IMG/VR virus record: IMGVR_UViG_3300017766_002493
Coordinates: 1 to 64,000 of that record
Length of the DNA: 64,000 nucleotides
Source of the DNA: a virus
Strand: one strand, 5' to 3'
The translations under genes and the position numbers were made by a program. Shown one piece after another: positions 1-62,315 of this stretch. The notes under the pieces are model-generated. The model was not told the origin of the DNA. It saw nothing but the letters and a program-made list of their open reading frames with translations, and did not search any database. The first letter of the stretch is position 1. Every line of letters begins with the position of its first letter.

Positions 1-3000
1 CATAGTAGCATAATCTCTAGGAGTAAATCCTAAAGCTTTTAAATCTTTTTTCTGCTCTGTAGTTGGCTTATTCTTTTTACTAGGTTTAGGTTTTTCCTCT
101 TGTTCTTCTACTTCTCCTAAATCTATAGTGAGCTGTGTACCTGTTTTAGTTTCAGTATCTGTGACAGTTGTAGTAGTTGGTTCAGAAGGCTTCTTAAAGG
201 TATCTCTTTTTTGATTAATACTAGTCATAAGCTCAGGTGTCATAACACCTTGATTATCTATCTGATCCATTACAGCATCTAACTCTTTTTCACTTACAGC
301 ATTAGCTATAAGACTATTCCAATTGGTTGGAGTAGGAGTTGTAGTAGGCTTAGTCTCAGGTGTTGGTTCTGCTAATAATCCCGCTTTACGATTATACTCA
401 TTTAGTATTCTACCTGGGTTAGTATATCCTAGATAATTTCTAAATGCTGTACCAGCTACTATATCATCATCTTTAAGATTATTAAATTGTTCTTTAGTAA
501 CATTGATAAATCTTGGATTTAATCTAGATAGTGTTTCTAGATTATCCATATCATAAGCACTATTAACATAATCTTTAAATGCTTGAAGCAACCTAGGTAG
601 CAAACCAGCTTCTCTTAAGCTTTCAATACTTGAATCTTTTGTTAAAGCTTTAGATGTTGTAACTTCTGATTTAGGAGCTTCACCCGGTTTTCTTCCCTCA
701 ATGTAGGTAGTAGCAATATATAAAGCTTCATCTAAAAGTGTATCATTCTCTTTTACACCCAGCATTCTAGATAAAAACTTTCTTAGTTTTTCAGTAAACT
801 CTTCCCATAAAGATTTACCTGTATTTTCATAAGGTATTGTTTTAAGCCAAGTTTTAAATCTATCATTACTAAATAGTTCTGATAAAAATTCAAACTCATT
901 TTTGAGGCCATAAAACTCTTTATCGGTAGCACTCTTATATAAAACTTTATCTTTTGGAGGATTTTTTTTATAAGCTTCTTTTGCCGCTTCAAGTAATTTT
1001 GTTATATCTGCTCTAAATTCTGGATCTTGTGCTAATTTTGTAGAAGTAATTTCATGGATAAGCTCATGAAGAATAACTTTTTCTATAGGCAAAGTACCAC
1101 CTTCATAATCCTCTGACATATATCTAGGATCAATAATGGTACCTATTTCATTACCAGCTGCATCATAAGCAAATACTCCTGGGTTAGGCAATGTGCTAAA
1201 TGTTATTTCACTTTGTGGAGATATTTTAGTTAATAATCTTTTAGCTAATTCTTTCTCTCTAGACGTAGCATATGGACTAGTAATTATTTTATTAAGAATA
1301 TCTATTGTATTTACCTTAGATGATTTACTTAAATCAGGATCAAATCCCCAATATTGAGCATGATCTCTAAGTGTTCTCTTATCATTATTAATTTTGTTTC
1401 TTGTAGCAGTACTATATTTTAAATTTTCTGGATCAGTACTTCTATCTGTTATAGGCTTCTTAGTAAACTTTTTTTCACCAGATTTTTCATACTTATCAAA
1501 GAGCTCCATGATATCTTTGAACTTTTGAGACTGAGGATCTATTTGGTTTTTACTACTTATATCGTAAAAAGCCGATGGGACTTTACCATCAAGAAAATCA
1601 TCCATCCCATCTTGATCTAAGAAGACACCCATCTTATAAAGCTCTACAAAAAAATCATTATCCTTCATTCTATCTAAGAATTCTCTATAAGCTTTTTCAA
1701 TAAGGTCTCTCTTGTTTTGTTCAATGTATCTTAAAGCTTGTTCTGCTCTAGCTGCATATTCTAAGAATTTAGTTGGATTATGTAAAGTGTCTACATAATC
1801 AGCATATTCCTCCATATCAACTCCTAGTAGGAATAGATCTTTGTAATCTTGGAAAGACTTGTCTATATTTTTTTGTTGAACAATTCCCCCTCTTTTTCTA
1901 GCAATATTTTTTAAATATCTATCATATGCTGTATACAATTCCCTCGATGCCACATCAAAGAAATCATCTTCCTCAGCTTTTTCAACGGCTGTAAGATTTT
2001 TAGTTTTACCTATACGATTACCAGCCTTATCATAAGCGTATCCGCCTTTAGTTTTATCTACAACAACAGCTTCACCTTTTTTATTTAAAACTTTTGTTCC
2101 TGATTTAATCTTAGATGATCTTTTTAATTCATCAACTTTATCAGTATCTACTCCAGCATCTTCCTTGCTTCTCATCTGTCTTGCAAGTTGGATACCCATT
2201 ATACCATCTCTTACTGCTTTTAAATCTTCTAAAGTTTCTGAAGCGCTTGCTGCTTTTTTCTGAGCATCAGCATCACCCTTTGAATAAATTTCTACTTCGG
2301 ACTGAAGAGCTAAAATAGCAGAATCAATATTGTTTCTATTTACAATGTTGCTAAAGTCTGTAGCATTAGCTTCACCTAACGGTTGAGACTTAATTAAATT
2401 TTCAGTAACACTTTTTAATCTTTCTACAGATCTATCAAAATGATAAGAAGACATGATAGCTGCTTTCTTAGCTTCATCAAAAGATTTTTGTTTAAAAAGC
2501 TCTGATTGAAAAGCTTCTGGATTTGTTTGCTTATTATATTTTCCAGGATTAAAAGGATTAGGAAATCTCTTTTCTATTTCTTCAGTATGCTTCTGAACTA
2601 GATCTAGTTTATGAAGCATGTTATCTATTTTATTCTGATAAAAAGTTTCAGGATCTCCTTGTGATTTATCAATAGGACCAAAAGCTTCTTGTAATTCTTC
2701 TGGGGTTAATTGTTTATAATCTTCAAGCTGATCTTTTATAAGATTTAATTTCCCTGTAGAAATAAGTGTGTGCAAGTGATTACCAATAGCATCATCTGTA
2801 ATGGTATAGAAATTTCTCTTATCACCGGCCATGTTAGCTTCTTCAGCTTCTTTCTTATTATTAAACTGTATTGCTCCATTAACAGTAATAGCATCAAAAA
2901 ATCTTTCATCCATAGTAGCCGCATTTAAAGCATCTACAACAGAATTAGTATGTCTTTCTAAATCAAGTTGATGTCTATCATATCCTTCTTTATCAGTTAT

Positions 3001-4719
3001 TTGCCAAAACTTTTTTGGAGCCCATTCAAATACAGCAGCTTGTGGTATATGAGCCATAGAACCCATCAAGAAACCAGATAAGAAAGTATCTCTACTTTCT
3101 CCAAAAGGATTAAGCATTCCAGCATTATCAGCAAAAGCTCCCCATGTAGATCTTGATCCAGCAATAGCAGGATTAATAAATTGATTAGCGTAGTAATCAG
3201 TCATAGTCTTCTGAACCGCATCCTGATATACTTCTTGAAAACCTTCAGCAAAATTTGCTTTAGTATAATTTACAAATTTGTTTAAACCATTTTTTAAAAG
3301 ATTCTTAGGTCTATATGTCTCTGGCTTTGTTAAAGAATTTAGAGTAGACATGAAATCTGTATCAATCCTCTTCCAAGCTTTTTCATTAGCTTGTTTCCAA
3401 GCTTGATTAAAAGTAAGTTTACCTTTAATACCTTGTGTAAGTTCTTCTCTAAAAGCTTCCATTGGTTTAAAACCTTTGAATGCTTTATCAAATACAATAG
3501 CATTAGATGCAAATAACACCGGCAAGTTCCACCAAAAAGTTTCCCTACCAGCATTAGCTGCTTCTGCATATATTCTTTCCCAATCTTTTACTGTAGGAGT
3601 TTTACCCTGTGCGTATATCTCATCAGCAAGTCTATCTCTTACAGCTAACTCAGCACTACCACCTTCCATTGCAGATTCTGATGTAGCAGCTGTTACTCTT
3701 CTAGCATCTCTATATAATGCACCAAAACCTTTTGCTGTTTTAGCTAAGTCAAAAACAAGTTCTCCTTTTTTACCTAAGTCAGCTAGTTCATCTGCATATT
3801 TAAATGTTTCTGGTATAAGTCCTTCAGCAGCTGCAGTTAATCCTCTACCTAAACCTTTTGCACCAGATTTAGCTAAAGAATAAATATCTTTCATCTTATC
3901 AGCATTTCTTACCCAATCATAAGATTTACTAAGAGCTTTGCCATAAGTTTTTAAATCCATTAATTTTTTTAACTTTGCAAATTGAGAAGCTGATTCTGCA
4001 CTAGCTGTAGCAAGAGATGTTCCTCCAGATTCTGGTGCTAAAAAAGCAGCACCTGCCCACATAGCAATTTCTTCTGCAGCAAACTCTCCTAATATACCAG
4101 CAGTGTAACCAAAGTCAACTGTCATGTTATTTACAAAGCTCCCAAATCCTCCTCTTGTATCTGCTCCAATAGCATGAGCTCTTTCCATGTTTCTTGCTGC
4201 TTCAACATCTGTTAAATCAGAAGACCAAGAATTCCAAGGTAGCATATCTGTAAATCCAGATACAAACCCATCGCCCATAGCACCGAAACTTCTTTTATAA
4301 TAATCAAACCATGTAGCTTCTTTATTATATATTTCTTCATTATCTCTATATGGAGAAAATCCTCTATCTTTAAAAACGCTACCTACTTTATAATATCTTT
4401 CAAAATTAGCTCCATCATAATCTGCATTGTAAGATTCTTCTTTTGCATATTTTGCTACATCATTGGCCCATTTAGTATCTTGATAAGATTGAGTAATGTT
4501 GCTAAATAATTTATTATAATCTGAATCACCCGATTGTGTAGGAATAAGATTACTACTAGGAATATTTACAGGATATGGCTTAGGAGGTTCTGGTAAATTT
4601 AAATTACTAACTTCTATAGAATAAGGATTAACTAAGCCCGACATCTGCTCGGATTGTAATTCATTTAGACTAGGTATAGATTGATTAGCATCTACACCTA
4701 AGTTATCTGTTTCTGCCAT
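1..4719 (-). CDS. Giant virion cargo/ejection protein with zincin-like metallopeptidase motif, 3' part outside the window; possibly N-terminal part of a crAss-type virion RNA polymerase or companion protein
   Basis: Not in the ORF track because no stop is reached. ATG at 4719 (MAETDNLGVDANQ...). In-frame VILHELIHEI (HExxH) near 1050-1077 and NEFEFLSEL near 875-900. Frame checked at several points, not at every codon. No RNAP catalytic motif seen in the window. Confidence 0.7.
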   Translation of the reverse strand, partial: MAETDNLGVDANQSIPSLNELQSEQMSGLVNPYSIEVSNLNLPEPPKPYPVNIPSSNLIPTQSGDSDYNKLFSNITQSYQDTKWANDVAKYAKEESYNADYDGANFERYYKVGSVFKDRGFSPYRDNEEIYNKEATWFDYYKRSFGAMGDGFVSGFTDMLPWNSWSSDLTDVEAARNMERAHAIGADTRGGFGSFVNNMTVDFGYTAGILGEFAAEEIAMWAGAAFLAPESGGTSLATASAESASQFAKLKKLMDLKTYGKALSKSYDWVRNADKMKDIYSLAKSGAKGLGRGLTAAAEGLIPETFKYADELADLGKKGELVFDLAKTAKGFGALYRDARRVTAATSESAMEGGSAELAVRDRLADEIYAQGKTPTVKDWERIYAEAANAGRETFWWNLPVLFASNAIVFDKAFKGFKPMEAFREELTQGIKGKLTFNQAWKQANEKAWKRIDTDFMSTLNSLTKPETYRPKNLLKNGLNKFVNYTKANFAEGFQEVYQDAVQKTMTDYYANQFINPAIAGSRSTWGAFADNAGMLNPFGESRDTFLSGFLMGSMAHIPQAAVFEWAPKKFWQITDKEGYDRHQLDLERHTNSVVDALNAATMDERFFDAITVNGAIQFNNKKEAEEANMAGDKRNFYTITDDAIGNHLHTLISTGKLNLIKDQLEDYKQLTPEELQEAFGPIDKSQGDPETFYQNKIDNMLHKLDLVQKHTEEIEKRFPNPFNPGKYNKQTNPEAFQSELFKQKSFDEAKKAAIMSSYHFDRSVERLKSVTENLIKSQPLGEANATDFSNIVNRNNIDSAILALQSEVEIYSKGDADAQKKAASASETLEDLKAVRDGIMGIQLARQMRSKEDAGVDTDKVDELKRSSKIKSGTKVLNKKGEAVVVDKTKGGYAYDKAGNRIGKTKNLTAVEKAEEDDFFDVASRELYTAYDRYLKNIARKRGGIVQQKNIDKSFQDYKDLFLLGVDMEEYADYVDTLHNPTKFLEYAARAEQALRYIEQNKRDLIEKAYREFLDRMKDNDFFVELYKMGVFLDQDGMDDFLDGKVPSAFYDISSKNQIDPQSQKFKDIMELFDKYEKSGEKKFTKKPITDRSTDPENLKYSTATRNKINNDKRTLRDHAQYWGFDPDLSKSSKVNTIDILNKIITSPYATSREKELAKRLLTKISPQSEITFSTLPNPGVFAYDAAGNEIGTIIDPRYMSEDYEGGTLPIEKVILHELIHEITSTKLAQDPEFRADITKLLEAAKEAYKKNPPKDKVLYKSATDKEFYGLKNEFEFLSELFSNDRFKTWLKTIPYENTGKSLWEEFTEKLRKFLSRMLGVKENDTLLDEALYIATTYIEGRKPGEAPKSEVTTSKALTKDSSIESLREAGLLPRLLQAFKDYVNSAYDMDNLETLSRLNPRFINVTKEQFNNLKDDDIVAGTAFRNYLGYTNPGRILNEYNRKAGLLAEPTPETKPTTTPTPTNWNSLIANAVSEKELDAVMDQIDNQGVMTPELMTSINQKRDTFKKPSEPTTTTVTDTETKTGTQLTIDLGEVEEQEEKPKPSKKNKPTTEQKKDLKALGFTPRDYATM

Positions 4720-4725
4720 AATAAA

Positions 4726-7700
4726 TTATTTATTAAAAAGTTGTTGAGGATCCTTTACTCCTTTTATTTTAGAAATATCATCTAATCTTTTTTTGTTTAT
4801 AGCTGAAAGACTAGACATATCTCTTAGAATTTTCTGTTGATATAAGTCTGCATCAAACATTGCAACAGGCTCTTTAGTTGTTACTGTTTCAACAGACTTT
4901 GTCCCATCATTATTAACGCGTATAAATTCCTTTTGCAAAATATACATATTACCATCTTTAGTAATTATACTTTTACCTCCTAAAGGAATATTATCAACAA
5001 CTTGTTTATCTGTTTTTAATCTGAAATCAACCATGCTAGGAGATGTTGTTTTATACAATCTTGTATTAGCAACATAACTACTTGGTAACTCTACAGCAAT
5101 TGGTTTTGATATATTATCTAACAGTTCTTTATCTTCATTTGTAGTAAACAATGGAGATTTCTTCTCTTCACCGGTTCTATAAATCTGATTCCAACTTTCA
5201 TTAGGATTAAGATAGATGTATGATTTACCATATCTATTACCCGATATTCTAGAAAACTGAAACTCGGAAGTAATATTTTTAATTTTTTCTTTATCACCAG
5301 ATTCTAAATCAGCTATATACTGATTAAGTTTAGCAATAGCTCCTTTGTCACTATCTTCGTAAGTATACTCTTCATCTAATGAAAAATCATTCTCAGGTCT
5401 AACTACAGCATTATTTTCTATAATAGCTTTCTTAGTTGCTGTAAGTAATTCTATTAAATCTTGAGCATCTTGAGAAGATTGAGGATTACTAATATCCCAA
5501 GGTGTTACATTTGCTACATATGTTTTAGTAGCTTTAGCATTTGTACCCTTTGGCATGTTTGGATCCATAGCATCCCAAGCTGGTGTTTTAAGCATTTCAT
5601 ATCCATCAAAGGAAGCTTTACCTTTTTGTAAAGCTTCTTTTGCAAACTCGTAAGCTTCATCTTGCTTAGTTAATGTTTTTAATATAGGATTTTTAACTTT
5701 ATATTTATTAACAATAACATCTTGTTCTCCTACTTTTTTAATAGATCCTCCTTGAAATTTGTTTTGATTTTTTGCCGCCCATTCTTTTGCAAAAGCATCT
5801 ACATCACCATCAGCAAATCCCATTGAAACAGAATTTTGTAAAGCTTCTTTAATAATGGTTCTTTCCATAAGGTCTTCTCCATCAAGCTTTTTGATAGCTA
5901 TTTCACTATTAATGAAACCTTCATATTCATTTTTTGCAGCAAGTCTACCTTTTTCTACATGAGCTGTAATAGCTTTATAATCTGCTAAAGCATTATTATA
6001 ATTAGCAGCATCTTGTGTTAAAGCTGCTCTATTTGCATCAAACCATTTAGAATAAACTTGGCCATCTGCTGTAGAAGCATCTGTATATTTTTTAAACTTA
6101 GTATTGATTATATCTTTTTGAGTTAAGCTTAAACTTTTAAATTTTTCAAATTCTTCTGGATCTTTATCTAATAGTTTTATAGGATTTATATTTGTATTAG
6201 GTCCTAATACATCTTTTAAAACATTTAACATAGATGTTCTTTGAGAAGGATCTGAAGCCAAAGCATCTTGCATAGCTATAACACTATTACTTATGTTAGA
6301 ATTCATAGCAGACTGAACATCTAATAAACTTTTTACACTTTGTTCTTTATTAAGTTTAACAGCTTGAGCCTGATCTATTACCGGTGTTGCTGTGTTTCCT
6401 TTATCAACAATTTGCGGATTAATCTTTATTGCTTTTTCAGCTGCTGCTATTGCGGCTTCTTCTTCTTTTTTCTTTTTAGCCTCATAATCTTTCATCATCA
6501 TTTGGCCTCTGATATCTGTACCAGGAACATATTCATTTGTTCTAGGATCAATATAGCCTTCTTTGTTTCTGGTTTTTTCTAAATCCCAAGCATGTTCTCT
6601 AGCAGCTTTTGCTATAGGATTTTCTTTAAACTCTCTTTCTGTAGTAAGGTTTGCATACTCTGATGCAGCCAATAAAGATTTTCTTTTTAGCAAATCAATA
6701 GCAGCTGAGTTATCGAAGTAGGATAAATAAGCTTTCATGTTTCCAATATTGTTTTTAAAAACCTTCATGGAATTAGCAGCCTCATCATATACTTTTACAT
6801 TTTTCTCAGCATCTTCAACTTCAGCTTTAGTATCTCCCCACTGACCAAGCCAATCATCAGATTGTGGTAATACACCAGTAGTTTTAACATGCTGATCTAT
6901 ATCTTTACTTTTTTGATTAGCAACATCAGCATTTGTTTGAGCTTCTTTTTTACCATTACTAATAGATTGCTCTACCTGGTTATAGTATTCTTGAATATAA
7001 GCCATGTTAGCTTCATCTTCACTTTGATAGTTAGACAAGTTAGATGCTACCCAATCTTTTCTATTTACATATGTATTAGCTTTAAGATACTCCATCATAC
7101 CAGGTTCTTCACCAAACTTGGATACATAAAATTCTGATAATGGTTTTACCATCTCAGTACCATTAGTAGTCTTAACAATCCAATCACCTTTTACATCATC
7201 ATATACAACTTTAAAGCCTGCATCTTTTGCAGCTTTCATAGCCTTGTCTTGAAAATCTTGAGCAGCTACATAATTTACATTTTCAAAACCTAAAGCTTCT
7301 TCTTTAGTAGCATTTTTAAATTCTTGAGCTTTATAATCTAAATACTTATCTCCACCGTCCCACCAAGAACCACCGCACTCATCAGGTTTAATACAATTAC
7401 GCATTGCCTGTGATCTTTCTTTTTGATTGTAGTAGTTTTTAGTCCAAGTCATATCTTTTATAAGATCTTTATCTTCATAAAAACCTTTGAATATAGATTT
7501 TGCAGCTTCAACATTTTGATCTAATGATAAATCTAATCCAGATATTCTTTGTATAGATTGATCAACCGATTTAAAAAACATATCTCTTTTAGAAATATTC
7601 TCATCTCTCATTAAAGGAGAATTTAAAAGAGTACTATAAATAGAACTAAGTTGCTTATGATTAGCATCATATCTACTTTGTTTAGTCTGCAACATATTGC

Positions 7701-7776
7701 CCAACATATTAAAGTCGGGTCTAAATGGTTGTGCTTGAGGTATATAATCCGTTATTCCAGGGATATAAGTAGCCAT
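4726..7776 (-). CDS. Large virion cargo/ejection protein (1016 aa)
   Basis: Long helical/coiled-coil-type ORF between the tail genes and the giant protein, as in crAss-like cargo clusters. Confidence 0.6.
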   Translation of the reverse strand: MATYIPGITDYIPQAQPFRPDFNMLGNMLQTKQSRYDANHKQLSSIYSTLLNSPLMRDENISKRDMFFKSVDQSIQRISGLDLSLDQNVEAAKSIFKGFYEDKDLIKDMTWTKNYYNQKERSQAMRNCIKPDECGGSWWDGGDKYLDYKAQEFKNATKEEALGFENVNYVAAQDFQDKAMKAAKDAGFKVVYDDVKGDWIVKTTNGTEMVKPLSEFYVSKFGEEPGMMEYLKANTYVNRKDWVASNLSNYQSEDEANMAYIQEYYNQVEQSISNGKKEAQTNADVANQKSKDIDQHVKTTGVLPQSDDWLGQWGDTKAEVEDAEKNVKVYDEAANSMKVFKNNIGNMKAYLSYFDNSAAIDLLKRKSLLAASEYANLTTEREFKENPIAKAAREHAWDLEKTRNKEGYIDPRTNEYVPGTDIRGQMMMKDYEAKKKKEEEAAIAAAEKAIKINPQIVDKGNTATPVIDQAQAVKLNKEQSVKSLLDVQSAMNSNISNSVIAMQDALASDPSQRTSMLNVLKDVLGPNTNINPIKLLDKDPEEFEKFKSLSLTQKDIINTKFKKYTDASTADGQVYSKWFDANRAALTQDAANYNNALADYKAITAHVEKGRLAAKNEYEGFINSEIAIKKLDGEDLMERTIIKEALQNSVSMGFADGDVDAFAKEWAAKNQNKFQGGSIKKVGEQDVIVNKYKVKNPILKTLTKQDEAYEFAKEALQKGKASFDGYEMLKTPAWDAMDPNMPKGTNAKATKTYVANVTPWDISNPQSSQDAQDLIELLTATKKAIIENNAVVRPENDFSLDEEYTYEDSDKGAIAKLNQYIADLESGDKEKIKNITSEFQFSRISGNRYGKSYIYLNPNESWNQIYRTGEEKKSPLFTTNEDKELLDNISKPIAVELPSSYVANTRLYKTTSPSMVDFRLKTDKQVVDNIPLGGKSIITKDGNMYILQKEFIRVNNDGTKSVETVTTKEPVAMFDADLYQQKILRDMSSLSAINKKRLDDISKIKGVKDPQQLFNK

Positions 7777-7842
7777 TTTTTATCTAATTTTATTTTGTAA
7801 ATATAATACAAAAACTTTATAAGTTTATTAAACTTATAAGGT

Positions 7843-10584
7843 TTATACTCCTGAACCGCTTATCACATTATTTGCTTGTGAAAGAAAACTCATATCTGGT
7901 GCTTCTGCTCCAATTCCTTTTTGGTTCTTAACAATGTTCCAAATAACTTCATCTTTAACACCAGGTAGTTTACTTTTAGCAGTATTAAATGCTGTAGTCA
8001 AATCTTCAGTTGAATATCCGGTTGTATTTATAGGTTTTGGTACACCTGTAAAAAACATGTCACCTCCTCTACGAGGACTGATATTAAACTGAGGATTCAT
8101 TTGATTTAAATTGTAAGCATTAGAAGCATTGCTTATAGCATTATTTAAAGATGTAACAAAGTTATCTCCATATGCTATTTTAGTATTTCTATATTGCTGA
8201 TTAGCAATAGTATTCTTATCAAAAAGTTTTGTGGCTAAATCAGCATTTAACATATTAAACCTGTTTAATATATCTGCATTTTGCTCAGCAGATCTATTTG
8301 CTACACCAACATTAAGGTTATTGTATCTACCTAAGATATCAGCAGCATTCTTAGCTCCTGCCCCAGATAACTGAGAAGCAGCAGATGAGAATTTCTTTCT
8401 GCCTGTAAATCCAGCTAATACATTAGCCATAATATTACTCTGCTCTGCATTAGCTGCTAATTCTCTTTCTGGACTATAATATTCATTTTTGATAAGAGAT
8501 GGATTTAGACTTGCTTGCCAAGGCATATACTTTTTAGCTGTTAATAGATTACCTAAATCAAAAGCCATTCTATTTTCATCCTGAATAAAATATTCTTTCT
8601 TTGGCTTGTAACCAAAACCATAAGGCATGTTAGCATTGGTATTTACATTATTAACATCAGTGGTTGTTTCATCCTCTTCTGTTTCTGTTTCACCTAACTC
8701 TTTCTCATTTCTTTTTTTACCGGTAATAGCTGCATATTCTCCAGCCGTGGTATTAGTATAAACAGCATCAGCATCCGATATAGAGCCAGCATATTTACCA
8801 GCAATCTTTTCATCACCTACACCTTTTTGTCCAATGATAAAAGGTGATAAACTCTTATTGATTTCATCATCTTTAATCTCTTTGTTATCTCTTGCCTTTA
8901 AAAGGTTATCATAACCAATATATGTAAGTTGTTGTAAAGCTTTAGACTTAGCATCTTTAGGCATAGGGGTACCTGTTTTTTCATAAAGATCATCTAAGCT
9001 TGTATACTTTAAATTTGCACAACGCTGCTGATCTTCTTTACTATTAGGTTTTCCTTGAGCATCTTTAGAACAATCTGTAAGTTTTTTTCCAGTTGCATTA
9101 TTAAAAAACTTTAATACGCTTCCTTGACTCATATCACCAGGTTTAATACCTAAGTCTTTACTAAGCTGTTCTATACCTTTGATATTTCTAGTATTAAATT
9201 CTATAAACTGATCAGCTAATTCATCAGCAGTCATCTTTTCAATATCTGCTTTTTTAAGACCAGCATGACTAACAACTGATTTACCACTTTTATTTTTTTG
9301 ATCAAAACTTTTTAAAATATTTGCTTTAAATTCTTCAGCTACTTTAGGATTTTTAAAAGCGCCTTTAATCATCTCAATGTTTTCATCAGCATTTGAACCA
9401 GCATAATCTTTTTCTTCTACTGTATAGTATCTACCATTTTTATCTTGAGTATAAACAGTTTTCTTACCACCAGCATCTGCAAAAGCTTTATCTCTAGCAG
9501 CTTCATATTCTGCATCTGTAGCATATGCACTACGTTTAATTACTTCAGCATCCGCAGGTACAACTTGTTTCTTAACCTTTTTCTTTTTAGTAGTTGTTGT
9601 TGTAGTTTGAGTACCAGTGTTTACACCATTTAAATAAGTGTTACCTGAAACAAAGGTTGCTCCATTTCCTCCACCACGAGTACCATATCCAATTACTTCT
9701 CCATCACTATTTACAACTTCAATTATATTTGCTTGAGGATTAAATCTGTATCCTACAGGTTGTCTTCTATTTCCGAACATAGGAAATGGATCCGCGGTTC
9801 TCCCTGGCATAAGATTATTCAAAGCTTGTAGAAGAGGATTATCTCCTCTGTTTCCTCTACGAGCTTGTGGAATAAACTTATTAATACTCTTTCCATATTT
9901 AGCCATGTCACCATAAGGATTCTCTTGTTGAGCTTGTGTTGGTTCCGGCGGCATAATTGATTGAGGATCTATACCAGTCATCTCTACATAGGATTGAGAT
10001 ATTGGTGGTATCCCACCCTCTTTAAATCCTTTCATAGATTCTTGATATAAAGCTAAACCACCTAGCTTAAGATTGTATTTAGCAATCATAGCCTCTGCAG
10101 TTTTTCTTTGAAGATCATCTGAATCTGGATCTAGAAGCATTGCATAGTAATCATTGATATTATATTGCTTAGCAATTTCTGCCGGAGTTAATCCACCATT
10201 CTTAAGCTTCTTGTTAAACATAGCAAGAACTTCTTCATCTTTTATTTTTAGAGCTGGTGTATCTGAAAAAATAAAAGAAGGAGAATTTTTAGGCACAGAT
10301 AAATTAGTACCACCTTGTGAGTGTCTTTTGCCACCAATAATATATTGCTGAGGAATACCTCCATTCATATAATCAGCAACAATAGTCTCACCTTTCTCAG
10401 CTTCTAGATCAGGTTTACCTTTTGTTGGACCAATACTCTTTTTAACCATTATTGGTTTATCGGACATCTGACCTGGCATAGCTGGCCAATTTAATGTATT
10501 AGCATTAAAGCCCATAGCAGGGTTAACTCTAGGTCCACCTTTAGCTGCTTTTGGAAGTCCTGTTATTTTTACTTTTCTTAGCAT
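7843..10584 (-). CDS. Virion cargo protein (913 aa)
   Basis: EAEKGE...GGKRHSQGG motif typical of crAss-like cargo proteins; N/Q/A-rich C-terminus; synteny. Confidence 0.6.
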   Translation of the reverse strand: MLRKVKITGLPKAAKGGPRVNPAMGFNANTLNWPAMPGQMSDKPIMVKKSIGPTKGKPDLEAEKGETIVADYMNGGIPQQYIIGGKRHSQGGTNLSVPKNSPSFIFSDTPALKIKDEEVLAMFNKKLKNGGLTPAEIAKQYNINDYYAMLLDPDSDDLQRKTAEAMIAKYNLKLGGLALYQESMKGFKEGGIPPISQSYVEMTGIDPQSIMPPEPTQAQQENPYGDMAKYGKSINKFIPQARRGNRGDNPLLQALNNLMPGRTADPFPMFGNRRQPVGYRFNPQANIIEVVNSDGEVIGYGTRGGGNGATFVSGNTYLNGVNTGTQTTTTTTKKKKVKKQVVPADAEVIKRSAYATDAEYEAARDKAFADAGGKKTVYTQDKNGRYYTVEEKDYAGSNADENIEMIKGAFKNPKVAEEFKANILKSFDQKNKSGKSVVSHAGLKKADIEKMTADELADQFIEFNTRNIKGIEQLSKDLGIKPGDMSQGSVLKFFNNATGKKLTDCSKDAQGKPNSKEDQQRCANLKYTSLDDLYEKTGTPMPKDAKSKALQQLTYIGYDNLLKARDNKEIKDDEINKSLSPFIIGQKGVGDEKIAGKYAGSISDADAVYTNTTAGEYAAITGKKRNEKELGETETEEDETTTDVNNVNTNANMPYGFGYKPKKEYFIQDENRMAFDLGNLLTAKKYMPWQASLNPSLIKNEYYSPERELAANAEQSNIMANVLAGFTGRKKFSSAASQLSGAGAKNAADILGRYNNLNVGVANRSAEQNADILNRFNMLNADLATKLFDKNTIANQQYRNTKIAYGDNFVTSLNNAISNASNAYNLNQMNPQFNISPRRGGDMFFTGVPKPINTTGYSTEDLTTAFNTAKSKLPGVKDEVIWNIVKNQKGIGAEAPDMSFLSQANNVISGSGV

Positions 10585-59806: not shown

Positions 59807-60208
59807 TTAGTTATACATTGTGATTTCTAAAGTACCTTGTGCTAAGAAAGGATTTCCTAATAAATCATTAATAAATACTCCGCTTTCACTTGTAAATATT
59901 ATTGCTGCATTAGGATCACCTAAAAATCCTAAAGGTATTGCTACAAAATTAACTTCATTTGCAGCAGTTGTATTAGCAAAAGTAATTTGTACTTTTTGAT
60001 CTTCTGTAAAAATAGGTTTATTTGCAACTACATAGTATTCACCATCTCCACTATACTCATATGTAAATGCTACACCAGTATCATTATACAACTCAGTAGC
60101 AACAGGTGCATCAGTCCCAGACTGTGATAATTGTGCTACATATTTTTTTACAATTTTCTCACTAGCTTTTTGCCAGTTAAAGATTTTGGGTAAATTAAAC
60201 TCTTTCAT
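59807..60208 (-). CDS. Small beta-rich structural protein
   Basis: KKYVAQLSQSGTDAP...LYND...GEY...LEITMY resembles a fibre C-terminal module. Confidence 0.5.
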   Translation of the reverse strand: MKEFNLPKIFNWQKASEKIVKKYVAQLSQSGTDAPVATELYNDTGVAFTYEYSGDGEYYVVANKPIFTEDQKVQITFANTTAANEVNFVAIPLGFLGDPNAAIIFTSESGVFINDLLGNPFLAQGTLEITMYN

Positions 60209-60225
60209 TGTTTTTATATTATTAA

Positions 60226-60972
60226 TTATATACTAAATTGTCTTACTGCGCGCACATAGATTGTGCTGTCCTTACTGCCGCTGCTGATATCCCCATTGGT
60301 AAAGCCGAAGCCCCACGCGCTGTCGTTGCCGCTCTCCGTACTACTCCAATAGTCACTAAATTCTAATTGAAAACCACCAGCAATTTCTAATCCTCTAGAT
60401 ACTTCTAACATATTACACCATAGTTTATTAAGTTCTTGTGCAGCAGGAAGATACCAATCATTTTTTCCACCATTGGTTGATGCTTCACATAAAAAAGCAG
60501 CACCAGATATAGCACCTGGTTGAGAAGTTATAATACTTTGATTTGAAGAACCATTCCATAAACTAGTAGCATTATTTGCAGTGTTATCAATATTACTCCA
60601 AACAGCTGGTCCTAAATTTTGCGTATCTACTACTAAATAATTTTGAGTATTACCTGTTAAATATCTATGGAATATAACTCCACCTTGTGCTGCAACATGT
60701 TGACCTATCTCATATTGAAATTGAGAAGAAGGTACAGCAACTAAAGGATCATCTATTGTACCAGTACCAGTAATAGTAACACCATCAGTAGTTACTTCTA
60801 TTAAGTCTTTTGCTTTGATAGCATAGATAGGGTACTTTGTAGATTTGAAACTATCAGTAGTATACTTATTAGTATACTTACCAATTATTAGATAATCTTC
60901 TTCTGGATCTACATTTGCAAGATCAAGGATTCTTCCTTGTGCTTTGAGTGCATCAAAATTTACTACATCCAT
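60226..60972 (-). CDS. DUF1566/C-type-lectin-fold receptor-binding protein, DGR target-like
   Basis: QGGVIF, GGKNDWYLPA.QEL, YWSSTE...AW...VRAVR.F motifs. Confidence 0.8.
   Translation of the reverse strand: MDVVNFDALKAQGRILDLANVDPEEDYLIIGKYTNKYTTDSFKSTKYPIYAIKAKDLIEVTTDGVTITGTGTIDDPLVAVPSSQFQYEIGQHVAAQGGVIFHRYLTGNTQNYLVVDTQNLGPAVWSNIDNTANNATSLWNGSSNQSIITSQPGAISGAAFLCEASTNGGKNDWYLPAAQELNKLWCNMLEVSRGLEIAGGFQLEFSDYWSSTESGNDSAWGFGFTNGDISSGSKDSTIYVRAVRQFSI
60243..60357 (-). other. DGR variable repeat (VR) signature
   Basis: Hand count gives 64/120 G+C for 60241-60360 in an AT-rich gene; variable positions are NNC/NNT codons as expected from AAC/AAT template codons. Confidence 0.75.
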
Positions 60973-61222
60973 GATTTATAAAAATAAGTGTTTATTACAA
61001 TATACAAAATAGTTCCTAAATATACAATAATAAAATCACAAAGACAAGAGCATATCCAACAATTCTTGCTGAGGAAACATATCCACGTTTAAGTACCATA
61101 GTATATATAATAAGATAAATATAAATAACACGGGTATAAAAGTAATAAATTATAATACCTATCCCATAGCGGTTTAGAAAAAAAATTTTTCCTGGAAATT
61201 TTTGTGAACTAGAGAGTGTGAT

Positions 61223-61287
61223 GGGGCGTCTATATTCGGCCCCCGCCACACTTCACCGGGGGGCCCTACCCCCGTCTTCGTGGTGGC
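61223..61287. other. GC-rich nested inverted repeats at the strand switch (candidate terminus/packaging/origin element)
   Basis: GGGGC/GCCCC, GCCAC/GTGGC and CGGGGG/CCCCCG pairs. Confidence 0.4.
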
Positions 61288-61472
61288 TTGGTTCCGATTT
61301 GCGGGAATAAAATAAAAAGAATTCTTATGATGGAGAAGTGTGATGGGTCAGTGTGTCTTGGTGTGACTTCGTCACGTGTTGTCTATGTGTTGCTTGTGTT
61401 CTACAAGTAGAACAAGCAACGAAGTATGTTTATATATAATATAGTATGTATGTGTATGTTGGAAAACAAGAT

Positions 61473-61485
61473 AACCCCTTTTTTT
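61473..61485 (+). promoter_or_regulatory. Early-region repeat motif AACCCCTTTTTTT (copy 1)
   Basis: Five intergenic copies in 2.3 kb. Confidence 0.6.
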
Positions 61486-61528
61486 ATCTGTTGTTATATT
61501 CGCGATATAATAACTAATTGTAGGTCTA

Positions 61529-61682
61529 ATTGAACCTTCGGTGCGTGAAGATACCAAATGCTTCACCCTTGCCATATGCTTGGCTCACGGTTGTTAGGAA
61601 CAAGACAACCTCACAATTCGGGTCGCAACTGTTGAAAAGACCTGAGCCGAGACCCTACACCTTGTGTGTAGGGCAGGTTAAT
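61529..61682 (+). ncRNA. Candidate multibranched structured ncRNA, family not recognised
   Basis: Seven nested, compatible helices found by eye (see findings); strand inferred from G-U pairs and the upstream motif. Confidence 0.55.
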
Positions 61683-61703
61683 ACAGTTTTTTATCAATTG
61701 ATT

Positions 61704-61716
61704 AACCCCTTTTTTT
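61704..61716 (+). promoter_or_regulatory. Early-region repeat motif (copy 2)
   Basis: AACCCCTTTTTTT then TAACCAATTAA before the ATG at 61745. Confidence 0.6.
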
Positions 61717-61744
61717 CTTTACTAACCAATTAATAATTATAACT

Positions 61745-61924
61745 ATGAAAAGAAAAGGTTTGGGCTTCTTGCAAATGCCTGTGATTGAGCACATTGATAA
61801 TGTTCAACCAAAGCAAACAGCACCTGTTAAACGAGTTAAGGAAAAACTTGTATACACAGGTAAGTTGAATCTTCGTGTTAATAGTAACGGGACCATTGAG
61901 TGTCTTGATCAATTACCTGATTAA
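61745..61924 (+). CDS. 59-aa early hypothetical protein
   Basis: Hand translation MKRKGLGFLQMPVIEHIDNVQPKQ...CLDQLPD; between motif and terminator. Confidence 0.6.
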   Translation: MKRKGLGFLQMPVIEHIDNVQPKQTAPVKRVKEKLVYTGKLNLRVNSNGTIECLDQLPD

Positions 61925-61937
61925 CAGATAATAAATT

Positions 61938-61963
61938 AGGGAACTCTTCGGGGTTCCCTTTTT
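61938..61963 (+). terminator. Intrinsic terminator
   Basis: AGGGAACTC-TTCG-GGGTTCCCT-TTTT with a UUCG tetraloop. Confidence 0.8.
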
Positions 61964-61974
61964 AATTTTTTATC

Positions 61975-62103
61975 ATGAAGATTATCAGAAGATACACAGC
62001 ATTTGATGGAACACAAATGGTTGTGTATGAAGATAATACAGGTTATCAGAACACTGTTCCACTTTATATCTATAATAAACTAATTAAAAACAAATCAAAA
62101 TGA
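61975..62103 (+). CDS. 42-aa early hypothetical protein
   Basis: Hand translation MKIIRRYTAFDGTQMVVYEDNTGYQNTVPLYIYNKLIKNKSK; ATGA overlap with the next gene. Confidence 0.5.
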   Translation: MKIIRRYTAFDGTQMVVYEDNTGYQNTVPLYIYNKLIKNKSK

Positions 62104-62315
62104 AAACAACAAAAGCAATCGCAGTTTGGTTTATTGCCTATATGGTAATATACCTTATCCTATCAGCAGTAGGATGTCTATTCTTTAAAGGTGATGGTCA
62201 ACACTTCGCCTATTCGGAGATAGCAGGAGACAGAGCATGGTTCATGGTATATTCTTTATTCATTGGCTGGTGGGCAGCTAGTGTAATATCTATGGATTAC
62301 TATGAGACAAAGTGA
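62100..62315 (+). CDS. Small two-TM membrane protein
   Basis: Two hydrophobic segments. Confidence 0.65.
   Translation: MKTTKAIAVWFIAYMVIYLILSAVGCLFFKGDGQHFAYSEIAGDRAWFMVYSLFIGWWAASVISMDYYETK

What the first reader, a model, noticed from the sequence alone, without database searches (positions are those of the whole stretch)
61529..61682. Unrecognised ~155-nt multibranched RNA as first early transcript
Seen, all mutually compatible: AACCT 61533-37/AGGTT 61675-79 closing; TCGGT 61538-42/GCCGA 61646-50; hairpins GTGAAG 61545-50/CTTCAC 61561-66, GCCA 61571-74/TGGC 61581-84, GGTTGT 61589-94/ACAACC 61605-10, TCGGGTC 61618-24/GACCTGA 61639-45 and CCCTACAC 61653-60/GTGTAGGG 61666-73. It is GC-richer than its flanks, has no convincing ORF, lies between motif copies 1 and 2 and is followed by a T-run. 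It is not a tRNA. Inference: a novel phage ncRNA, such as a decoy against host defence, an antitermination element or a ribozyme.
Basis: partly seen in the sequence, partly recalled or inferred. Interest (0 to 1): 0.75.

Follow-up and report, generated by a model that had tools for sequence, protein, structure and literature searches.

The report
Early phage RNA with swappable insert
A lake phage distantly related to crAss-like viruses carries, at the head of its early genes, a compact folded non-coding stretch whose middle is replaced by unrelated pieces in sister strains; it is probably a new small RNA, but neither its expression nor its job has been shown.

Summary
The minimum-energy fold of 61529-61682 (+) reproduces all seven helices (-51.1 kcal/mol, z -3.25). 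The stretch is one of four GC-rich islands in a 120-kb AT-rich phage genome. It matches no Rfam family or tRNA.

Covariation could not be tested. Only four distinct copies exist, all 97-99% alike: 0 double changes and 3 one-sided changes, all pair-keeping on the + strand. No RNA evidence covers the element. The T-run is not conserved and no terminator is predicted. After correcting for composition the fold ranks 257 of 6000 genome windows.

New finding: the linker between hairpins 3 and 4 (61611-61617) is a swap site. Sister strains carry unrelated inserts of 135, 112 or 200 nt there, and the scaffold still folds. One insert shares a 9-bp frame helix with a second structured RNA candidate. That candidate lies just upstream of a Ro60-like gene.

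Best reading: a lineage-restricted early non-coding RNA that acts as a platform for exchangeable modules; its function is unknown.

Earlier notes of this scan describe similar "frame plus swappable insert" phage RNAs on other DNA. I did not check them.

The parts
61473..61485 (+). Copy 1 of the early-region motif AACCCCTTTTTTT; candidate promoter element for the unit that holds the RNA
   Evidence: 5 copies in the window and 7 in the whole genome. All are on the + strand within 61473-64999. 0 of 100 shuffles reach 5 copies. Promoter function is inferred, not shown.
61529..61682 (+). Core scaffold of the structured RNA candidate. Two nested closing helices: P1 61533-37/61675-79 and P2 61538-42/61646-50. 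Hairpins: H1 61545-66, H2 61571-84, H3 61589-61610, H4 61618-45, H5 61653-73.
Evidence: P1, P2, H1, H2, H4 and H5 are kept in the MFE of all 4 distinct variants; H3 is kept in 3 of 4. 98.8% of cells are paired over 42 pairs.
61611..61617 (+). Linker between H3 and H4. This is the swap site where sister strains carry unrelated inserts of 135, 112 or 200 nt.
   Evidence: Seen in L007, L093 and L092=L094. The run X14 contig has 135 letters between 61612 and 61613. Run X7 contigs break at 61609, 61612 and 61616 with three different loose ends.
61687..61692 (+). T-run after the element; not a conserved terminator
   Evidence: It reads TTTCTT in L007 and L093, and 61690 is T>C in X7 and X14. No terminator-like site is found here.
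61704..61716 (+). Copy 2 of the motif, heading the first early ORF (61745-61924) and its terminator (61938-61959)

Best explanation
The stretch encodes a structured non-coding RNA, found only in this narrow phage lineage, at the head of the early region.

The constant part is about 147 nt. Two nested end-to-end helices clamp a five-way junction of four hairpins, and a fifth hairpin branches between the two helices. The linker between hairpins 3 and 4 is a docking site. There sister strains carry nothing (this window) or unrelated structured modules of 112-200 nt.

I read it as a stable RNA platform. It would be made from the first copy of the early motif as soon as the early genes are switched on. 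It would present a strain-specific module to a protein or RNA partner, as a decoy or adaptor in the phage-host conflict.

Shown: the fold, its composition, its restriction to one lineage, the swap site, and the module type shared with a second RNA candidate.
Inferred: transcription, the promoter role of the motif, stability, release as a discrete RNA, and any partner.
For: Fold and composition:
- The fold beats shuffles on the + strand more than on the - strand (z -3.25 against -2.28).
- It is a GC-rich island in an AT-rich genome. Only 4 of 3000 windows reach GC 0.49, and all lie in this intergenic region.

Substitutions:
- The three substitutions inside stems among the 4 distinct copies are 61564 C>T, 61620 G>A and 61657 A>G. 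All keep a pair on the + strand through G-U. Each would give a C-A mismatch in some copy on the - strand.

Swap site:
- The scaffold halves are near-invariant. The segment 61610-61616 is replaced by three unrelated inserts in fetched loci.
- Run X7 shows a likely fourth insert (loose ends compared by eye).
- The boundaries fall within 1 nt of the ends of H3 and H4.
- All full-length variants still fold with the scaffold: z -3.54, -2.39 and -2.68.

Shared module:
- The 200-nt insert contains the inverted pair CAGTTGTAA...TTACAACTG. The same pair frames the 3' domain of a second structured candidate at genome 65881-66311 (z -4.66).
- 6 such pairs (5 distinct) occur in 1.22 Mb, all at these RNA loci. 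The two 9-mers occur 22 and 28 times in total, so my estimate of chance pairs is about 0.15.

Place and precedent:
- The element lies after copy 1 of a motif confined to the early region.
- In crAss-like phage phi14:2, two early intergenic regions give abundant, persistent non-coding RNAs of unknown function (bioRxiv 10.1101/2020.03.07.982082, passages read).
Against: - No compensatory double change: 0 of 42 pairs, and 38 pairs never vary.
- The copies are 95-100% identical over the whole neighbourhood, so the scaffold is no better conserved than its flanks.
- After correcting for composition the fold ranks only 257 of 6000.
- No RNA evidence: the two RNA-run contigs lie at 61987-62227 only.
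- There is no terminator and the T-run is not conserved. A discrete RNA would therefore need processing.
- One variant (X7, 61679 T>C) breaks the terminal P1 pair.
- The model found the element in 2 of 51 related records. It was absent from complete relatives and from 6 loci with a 37-70% identical Ro60-like gene.
- The same intergenic region has other large indels, for example an 806-nt gene insertion near 61085. A DNA-level plasticity zone would explain part of the pattern.
- A single insertion site in an unpaired linker is only weakly unlikely. Multiloop and junction linkers make up about 13% of positions (my count from the structure).
Confidence: 0.4

Rival explanations
1. It is a cis-acting 5' leader of the first early mRNA. 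Transcripts started at motif copy 1 would run through the fold into ORF 61745-61924. The fold would protect the 5' end, serve as a processing site, or modify the polymerase so that it reads through the early terminators, as a put-like antiterminator does.
For: No terminator lies between the element and the ORF, and the T-run is not conserved. Only 62 nt separate the fold from the ATG. The early region is punctuated by intrinsic terminators at 61938-59, 62326-58 and 63711-41: 7 terminator-like sites found against 2.0 expected.
Against: The ORF has its own motif copy at the same 40-44 nt spacing as the other early ORFs, so it does not need the upstream unit. A leader does not explain why unrelated 112-200 nt modules are swapped into it. 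Nor does it explain why one module is of the type found in a second RNA elsewhere. No riboswitch or leader family matched.
Confidence: 0.2
2. There is no RNA function. The stretch is part of a DNA-level plasticity zone at the late/early strand switch, such as a recombination hot spot or a site of promoter, origin or protein binding. In this view the fold is a by-product of GC-rich inverted repeats.
For: The same intergenic region shows other large indels between sister strains: an 806-nt insertion with a 292-aa ORF near 61085, a 12-nt insertion and a 7-nt deletion. The scaffold is no better conserved than its flanks. There is no covariation. The composition-corrected rank is moderate. The minus strand also folds better than shuffles (z -2.28).
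Against: The nested long-range helices P1 and P2 span 150-350 nt and are kept whatever the insert. Cruciform-type DNA elements do not need that. All three stem substitutions are G-U-compatible on the + strand only. The inserts end at helix borders. The framed module is shared with another structured non-coding locus.
Confidence: 0.2
3. It is a Y-RNA-like partner of the phage's Ro60-like protein (genome 66892-68277). The end-to-end stem would bind the ring protein, and the variable module would recruit or block a host factor such as an exoribonuclease.
For: The 461-aa DUF2828/DUF7788 protein gives a model with pLDDT 77. Its 13 best Foldseek matches in PDB are all Ro60/TROVE chains, led by Thermus phage phiLo Ro60 at E 6e-8 and TM 0.51. 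phiLo Ro60 binds two phage-encoded Y-like RNAs and co-opts host PNPase (PMC12135203, passages). The element has a 5'-3' terminal stem and lies on the same strand. One of its insert types shares a frame with the RNA candidate directly upstream of the Ro60-like gene.
Against: The element has no CGAA or GNCGAA motif (sequence read; motif from PMC4201824 and PMC12135203). It has no tRNA-like domain and no Y_RNA or YrlA match at E up to 10. It lies 5.2 kb from the gene, beyond the 4 kb used to define YrlA. Relatives with a 37-70% identical Ro60-like gene have no copy of it. Better-placed candidates lie next to the gene.
Confidence: 0.1
4. It is a small protein-coding gene: either the + ORF from the ATG in the H1 loop, or the - ORF 61372-61575.
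For: Open frames exist on both strands. The - ORF stays open in all variants and has one weak PHROG hit at E 0.032. In L007 a 70-aa + frame runs through the insert.
Against: There is no Pfam hit. The two substitutions inside the + frame, 61564 and 61577, both change the residue. The + frame ends after 25, 70, 37 or about 19 codons depending on the insert (the window's and L093's lengths were read by eye). The - ORF runs across the early motif and an AT-rich repeat, and its conservation is uninformative at 97-99% DNA identity.
Confidence: 0.03

Closest known systems
Early long non-coding RNAs of crAss-like Cellulophaga phage phi14:2 (intergenic regions g004-g005 and g005-g006; bioRxiv 10.1101/2020.03.07.982082, passages read)
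   Same: Non-coding stretches at the start of the early region of a Bacteroidota phage that has a crAss-type terminase. They are transcribed in the early direction, are abundant and persistent, and have no known function.
   Different: There is no sequence or model similarity. Model R1 on phi14:2 1-8000 gave only an 11.7-bit hit on a tRNA-like T arm. The phi14:2 regions are far longer (about 1.7 kb free of ORFs). No swap site has been described there. Expression of our element is not shown.
Y RNAs and Y-like RNAs (YrlA of bacteria and mycobacteriophages, PMC4201824; Yrl1 and Yrl2 of Thermus phage phiLo, PMC12135203)
   Same: A small RNA whose 5' and 3' ends pair into a stem that encloses a variable, modular interior. 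It is encoded on the same strand as a Ro60-like gene in a phage.
   Different: It lacks the CGAA/GNCGAA motif and the tRNA-like domain. It has no Rfam hit. It lies 5.2 kb from the gene rather than within 4 kb. Binding has not been tested.
Cis-acting antitermination RNAs of the HK022 put type
   Same: A folded RNA directly after an early promoter and ahead of several terminators.
   Different: put consists of two simple stem-loops of about 70 nt. Here there are seven helices with a swappable module, and the downstream units appear to have their own promoter-like motif.
Ornate phage-associated RNAs ROOL and GOLLD (PMC12286853, seen in a search listing only; Rfam families)
   Same: Uncatalogued-function structured RNAs of phages that tolerate embedded variable or foreign modules.
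   Different: Those are 500-800 nt and form multimeric cages. There is no Rfam match here, and this core is about 150 nt.

Membership tests
Y RNA / YrlA-type RNA | 5' and 3' ends pair into a terminal stem that encloses the rest of the RNA | tested here: met
   P1 and P2 close the whole element in the MFE of all four distinct variants.
Y RNA / YrlA-type RNA | GNCGAAN0-1G (CGAA) motif near the 5' end, the presumed Ro60 contact (PMC4201824, PMC12135203) | tested here: not met
   There is no CGAA anywhere in 61529-61682 (sequence read). The nearest is GCCGAG on the 3' side.
Y RNA / YrlA-type RNA | tRNA-like domain with D and T arms | tested here: not met
   ARAGORN finds nothing. There is no tRNA, YrlA or Y_RNA match at E up to 10.
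Y RNA / YrlA-type RNA | Encoded within 4 kb of a Ro60 gene on the same strand | tested here: inconclusive
   It is on the same strand, but 5.2 kb lie between its end at 61682 and the start at 66892 of a gene whose model matches Ro60.
tRNA / tmRNA | Cloverleaf with anticodon, recognised by ARAGORN | tested here: not met
   0 genes in the window and in the other 56 kb of the genome.
Known self-cleaving ribozymes (hammerhead, twister, pistol, hatchet, HDV-like) and other Rfam families | Match to the family covariance model | tested here: not met
   0 matches at gathering score in the window. In 61100-62000 the best hit is RT-6 at 20.6 bits against a gathering score of 46.7, and it is on the - strand over one hairpin. 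Nothing was found in the insert-bearing variants.
Stand-alone sRNA gene with an intrinsic terminator | GC-rich hairpin followed at once by a conserved U-run | tested here: not met
   No terminator-like site at 61650-61700. 13 nt lie between H5 and the T-run, and the T-run is broken in L007, L093, X7 and X14.
phi14:2-type early non-coding RNAs | Abundant early-strand transcript from an early intergenic region | not testable with these tools
   The place and strand fit. The only RNA contigs found lie at 61987-62227. There is no similarity to phi14:2.
put-like cis antiterminator | Acts on the transcribing polymerase to suppress downstream terminators | not testable with these tools
   Only the position, after a promoter-like motif and before three terminators, is consistent.

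The most novel reading that the evidence does not exclude
This element and the larger RNA candidate at genome 65881-66311 belong to one undescribed class of modular phage RNAs. In this class, constant scaffolds carry exchangeable 'framed' hairpin cassettes: a fixed 9-bp helix around a free interior. The cassettes are shuffled between loci and between strains. The RNAs would work with the phage's Ro60-like ring protein as programmable adaptors or decoys against host RNA-degrading or defence factors. The cassette turnover would be the trace of an arms race fought with RNA rather than protein.
Probability: 0.12. Interest if true: 0.8.

Novelty: new variant of a known kind. Interest (0 to 1): 0.5.

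Why it matters
Phage non-coding RNAs made at the very start of infection are known to exist (phi14:2), but none has a function. This one is small enough to study, and it has a natural series of alleles: empty, 112, 135 and 200 nt, and probably more. These alleles mark which part is scaffold and which is payload.

If the payloads prove to be functional modules, this would be a natural 'RNA display' system in a virus. It would also be a handle on what phage Ro60-like proteins do. If the element is only a by-product of a recombination hot spot, that is a useful caution against reading stable folds in GC-rich islands of AT-rich phage genomes as RNA genes.

Tried and rejected
Homologue hunting, mostly empty:
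- blastn of the intergenic region against 50,697 GenBank phage records found nothing.
- 4 loci found through the neighbouring 248-aa gene had no similarity.
- 80 loci were kept from 220 relatives of the 530-aa structural protein. Only L007 carries the element, by blastn and by model R1 (84 loci, 976,547 bases).
2 of 51 had a match.
- The first early ORF as query returned only L007's contig.
- Exact-pattern scans: viral contigs gave only L007's contig. Metagenome contigs gave 0 for the first pattern and 3 for the second.
- Model R1 was run on 6 of the 10 loci with a Ro60-like gene. L097, L098, L101 and L105 were left out for lack of upstream sequence. The best hit was 13.3 bits on the wrong strand. 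blastn over all 10 loci gave no hit to the element.
- L018 1-5600 with filters off gave only a terminator hairpin that resembles H5.

Other negative or unhelpful results:
- The RNA runs X22 and X23 cover only 61987-62227, so they say nothing about the element.
- A diversity-generating retroelement was rejected. No template repeat for 60200-60400 exists anywhere in the genome.
- The three inserts have no match in GenBank phages. They have no match at E 0.01 in the own genome or the fetched loci. An 11-mer scan gave only chance-level noise apart from the frame.
- A loop-loop kissing pair between H3 and H5 was rejected. With the MFE loops there is no 5-nt match, and 1220 of 5000 loop shuffles give one.
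- The ORF-less unit after motif copy 6 is not notably structured (z -1.34).
- A search for 'DUF2828' returned 5 papers, none on phages or RNA by title or abstract. Searches for crAss-like non-coding RNAs and for structured phage RNAs with variable regions listed nothing that describes this element. I read listings only.
The phi14:2 tables with transcript coordinates and the YrlA tables may bear on the comparisons.

Full report
Setting. The window is the first 64 kb of a 120,123-bp virus record with terminal repeats. Long minus-strand ORFs include portal, large terminase, major head and other virion proteins. The terminase is about 25% identical to those of crAss-like phages of Bacteroides, Flavobacterium and Cellulophaga. 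Public runs that hold the stretch are freshwater or lake metagenomes. The late genes end, with their start codon, at 60972 on the minus strand. Small plus-strand ORFs start at 61745. The finding lies in the 770-nt gap between the two.

The observation. The energy is -51.1 kcal/mol against -38.5 +/- 3.9 for shuffles, z -3.25, and 2 of 200 shuffles fold as well. The reverse complement scores z -2.28. GC is 0.43-0.49 against about 0.3 around it. In a scan of 6000 windows of 154 nt over the whole genome, the window ranks 7th by raw energy. After regression on composition it ranks only 257th. Just 4 of 3000 plus-strand windows reach GC 0.49, and all lie in 61161-61521. So the fold is real and better than chance, but not an outlier once its GC content is allowed for. 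ARAGORN finds no tRNA. Rfam gives nothing at gathering score in the window or in the other 56 kb. With E up to 10 it gives only sub-threshold noise.

Surroundings. The motif AACCCCTTTTTTT occurs seven times in the genome. All copies are on the plus strand between 61473 and 64999. Copies 2-5 sit 40-44 nt before an ATG and mostly follow intrinsic terminators. The element follows copy 1. No terminator-like site follows it, and the T-run at 61687-92 reads TTTCTT in two of the four variants and in two runs. A transcript from copy 1 would therefore run on into the first ORF unless it is processed. Upstream, 61195-61440 is a second GC-rich block that folds better on the plus strand (-79.7 kcal/mol, z -3.28) than on the minus strand (-58.8, z -2.44). 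'First early transcript' is therefore not secure.

Relatives. A covariance model was built from the single sequence (R1). It found the element only in L007 among 84 loci around relatives of a structural protein, and in 2 of 51 whole records. Complete relatives lack it. One exact 20-nt pattern brought three metagenome contigs. The result is four distinct copies: the window, L007, L093 and L092=L094. They are 95-100% identical to the window over most of the neighbourhood, so conservation of the scaffold carries no weight. Over 42 pairs there are 0 double changes, 3 one-sided changes and 38 invariant pairs. The three one-sided changes are 61564 C>T, 61620 G>A and 61657 A>G. All give or resolve a G-U pair on the plus strand, which would be a C-A mismatch on the minus strand. 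This is a small but directional hint for a plus-strand RNA. Two further changes lie in loops (61555, 61577). One variant in run X7 (61679 T>C) opens the last pair of P1.

The swap site. Between hairpin 3 and hairpin 4 the window has a 7-nt linker (61611-61617). At that place L007 has 135 extra nt, L093 has 112 and L092/L094 have 200, and the inserts are unalignable with each other. Run X14 carries the 135-nt form. In run X7, contigs stop at 61609 and start at 61612 and 61616, with three different loose ends. By eye, the first loose end equals the start of the 200-nt insert with one change. The second has the same 9-bp stem as the end of the 112-nt insert but another loop. The third matches none. 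So at least four, and probably five, alleles coexist in otherwise near-identical phages. The borders fall within one base of the helix ends. The scaffold helices P1, P2, H1, H2, H4 and H5 are predicted in every variant, and H3 in three of four. None of the inserts has a convincing ORF, an Rfam match or a relative in GenBank phages.

A shared module. The 200-nt insert contains CAGTTGTAA, and 72 nt after its start its reverse complement TTACAACTG. The same pair frames the 3' domain of a second non-coding candidate at genome 65881-66311 (446 nt folded, z -4.66). It also occurs twice in L007, where that candidate is a tandem pair, and once in the more distant L018. In 1.22 Mb of fetched DNA the two words occur 22 and 28 times. 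The 6 close pairs (5 distinct) all lie at these loci, and from those densities I estimate about 0.15 pairs by chance. The interiors are all different. So at least one insert is a module of a type used elsewhere in these phages. This argues that the inserts are RNA parts rather than junk, and that the element is a carrier for them.

A possible partner. About 600 nt after the second candidate lies a 461-aa ORF with DUF2828 and DUF7788. Its family is large and mostly viral. An AlphaFold model built from 27 sequences (pLDDT 77) matches Ro60 over its full length. The 13 best PDB hits are all Ro60/TROVE chains, led by the Ro60 of Thermus phage phiLo (E 6e-8, TM 0.51). That protein binds two Y-like RNAs encoded upstream of its gene and engages host PNPase (PMC12135203, passages). 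Our element shares the terminal stem and the strand. However, it lacks the CGAA/GNCGAA motif and the tRNA-like domain that define such RNAs (PMC4201824, passages). It has no Rfam Y-RNA hit, lies 5.2 kb away, and is missing from relatives that keep the gene. I therefore do not file it as a Y RNA. The link stays a hypothesis.

Precedent. In crAss-like phage phi14:2, two early intergenic regions are transcribed at higher levels than most genes from the earliest time point, and they persist. The authors call them long non-coding RNAs of unknown function (bioRxiv 10.1101/2020.03.07.982082, passages). There is no similarity to our element.

Verdict. The interpretation 'novel phage non-coding RNA' is the best reading (0.4 for a modular trans-acting platform, plus 0.2 for a cis leader and 0.1 for a Y-like RNA). 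It is not proven: there is no covariation, no transcript evidence and only a narrow lineage. A DNA-level plasticity zone with an incidental fold keeps 0.2, because the same region has other large indels. The swap site and the shared framed module are new. They raise the interest above that of an ordinary orphan hairpin cluster. Earlier notes of this scan report comparable 'frame plus exchangeable insert' RNAs in other phages. I did not test those.

Noticed in passing
window 61195-61440: A second GC-rich, ORF-poor block lies upstream of motif copy 1. It folds better on the + strand (-79.7 kcal/mol, z -3.28) than on the - strand (-58.8, z -2.44). It contains two similar GTGTGATGGG-type starts near 61220 and 61337. 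It is 97-100% conserved in the sister strains. It may be another RNA or a DNA-level element.
   Followed up: partly
L088:1881-2311 (genome 65881-66311): A non-coding candidate of about 430 nt (z -4.66 for 446 nt folded). Its 3' domain is framed by CAGTTGTAA/TTACAACTG. In L007 it is present as a tandem pair with different interiors, and L018 has one framed unit. Only a 41-nt piece is conserved upstream of the Ro60-like gene in L102.
   Followed up: partly
L088:2892-4277 (genome 66892-68277): A 461-aa DUF2828/DUF7788 protein whose AlphaFold model matches Ro60/TROVE-vWA proteins over its full length; the top 13 PDB hits include phage phiLo Ro60. At least 5856 relatives were found in the protein collection.
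   Followed up: yes
window about 61081-61089; L094:1541-2419: L093 and L094 carry an 806-nt insertion here. It holds a 292-aa ORF on the late strand with a peptidoglycan-binding-like N-terminus (read by eye, not searched). Run X7 has a 12-nt insertion and a 7-nt deletion nearby.
   Followed up: partly
window 62100-62315: The 71-aa early ORF is only 61-65% identical in L007, L092 and L094, while its flanks are 95-100% identical. It is a swapped allele of a small, probably membrane, protein.
   Followed up: no
window 60241-60351: A GC-rich patch (0.57) at the 3' end of the 248-aa gene, which another reader called a DGR variable region. It has no template-like repeat anywhere in the 120-kb genome.
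   Followed up: partly
L088-L090 (genome 64001-120123): Rfam finds no family at gathering score. There are also no tRNA genes.
   Followed up: partly
window 61589-61642 and the frame words: The core GUUGU/ACAAC recurs in the H3 stem, in the H4 loop (CAACUGUUG) and in the frame helix. In the 200-nt allele the MFE pairs the 3' frame strand with the H3 5' strand instead. This may be chance or a shared recognition element.
   Followed up: no
L095:4459-4630 (phi14:2): The end of the phi14:2 non-coding region contains a tRNA-like T arm and acceptor end. It is the only hit of model R1 there, at 11.7 bits.
   Followed up: no
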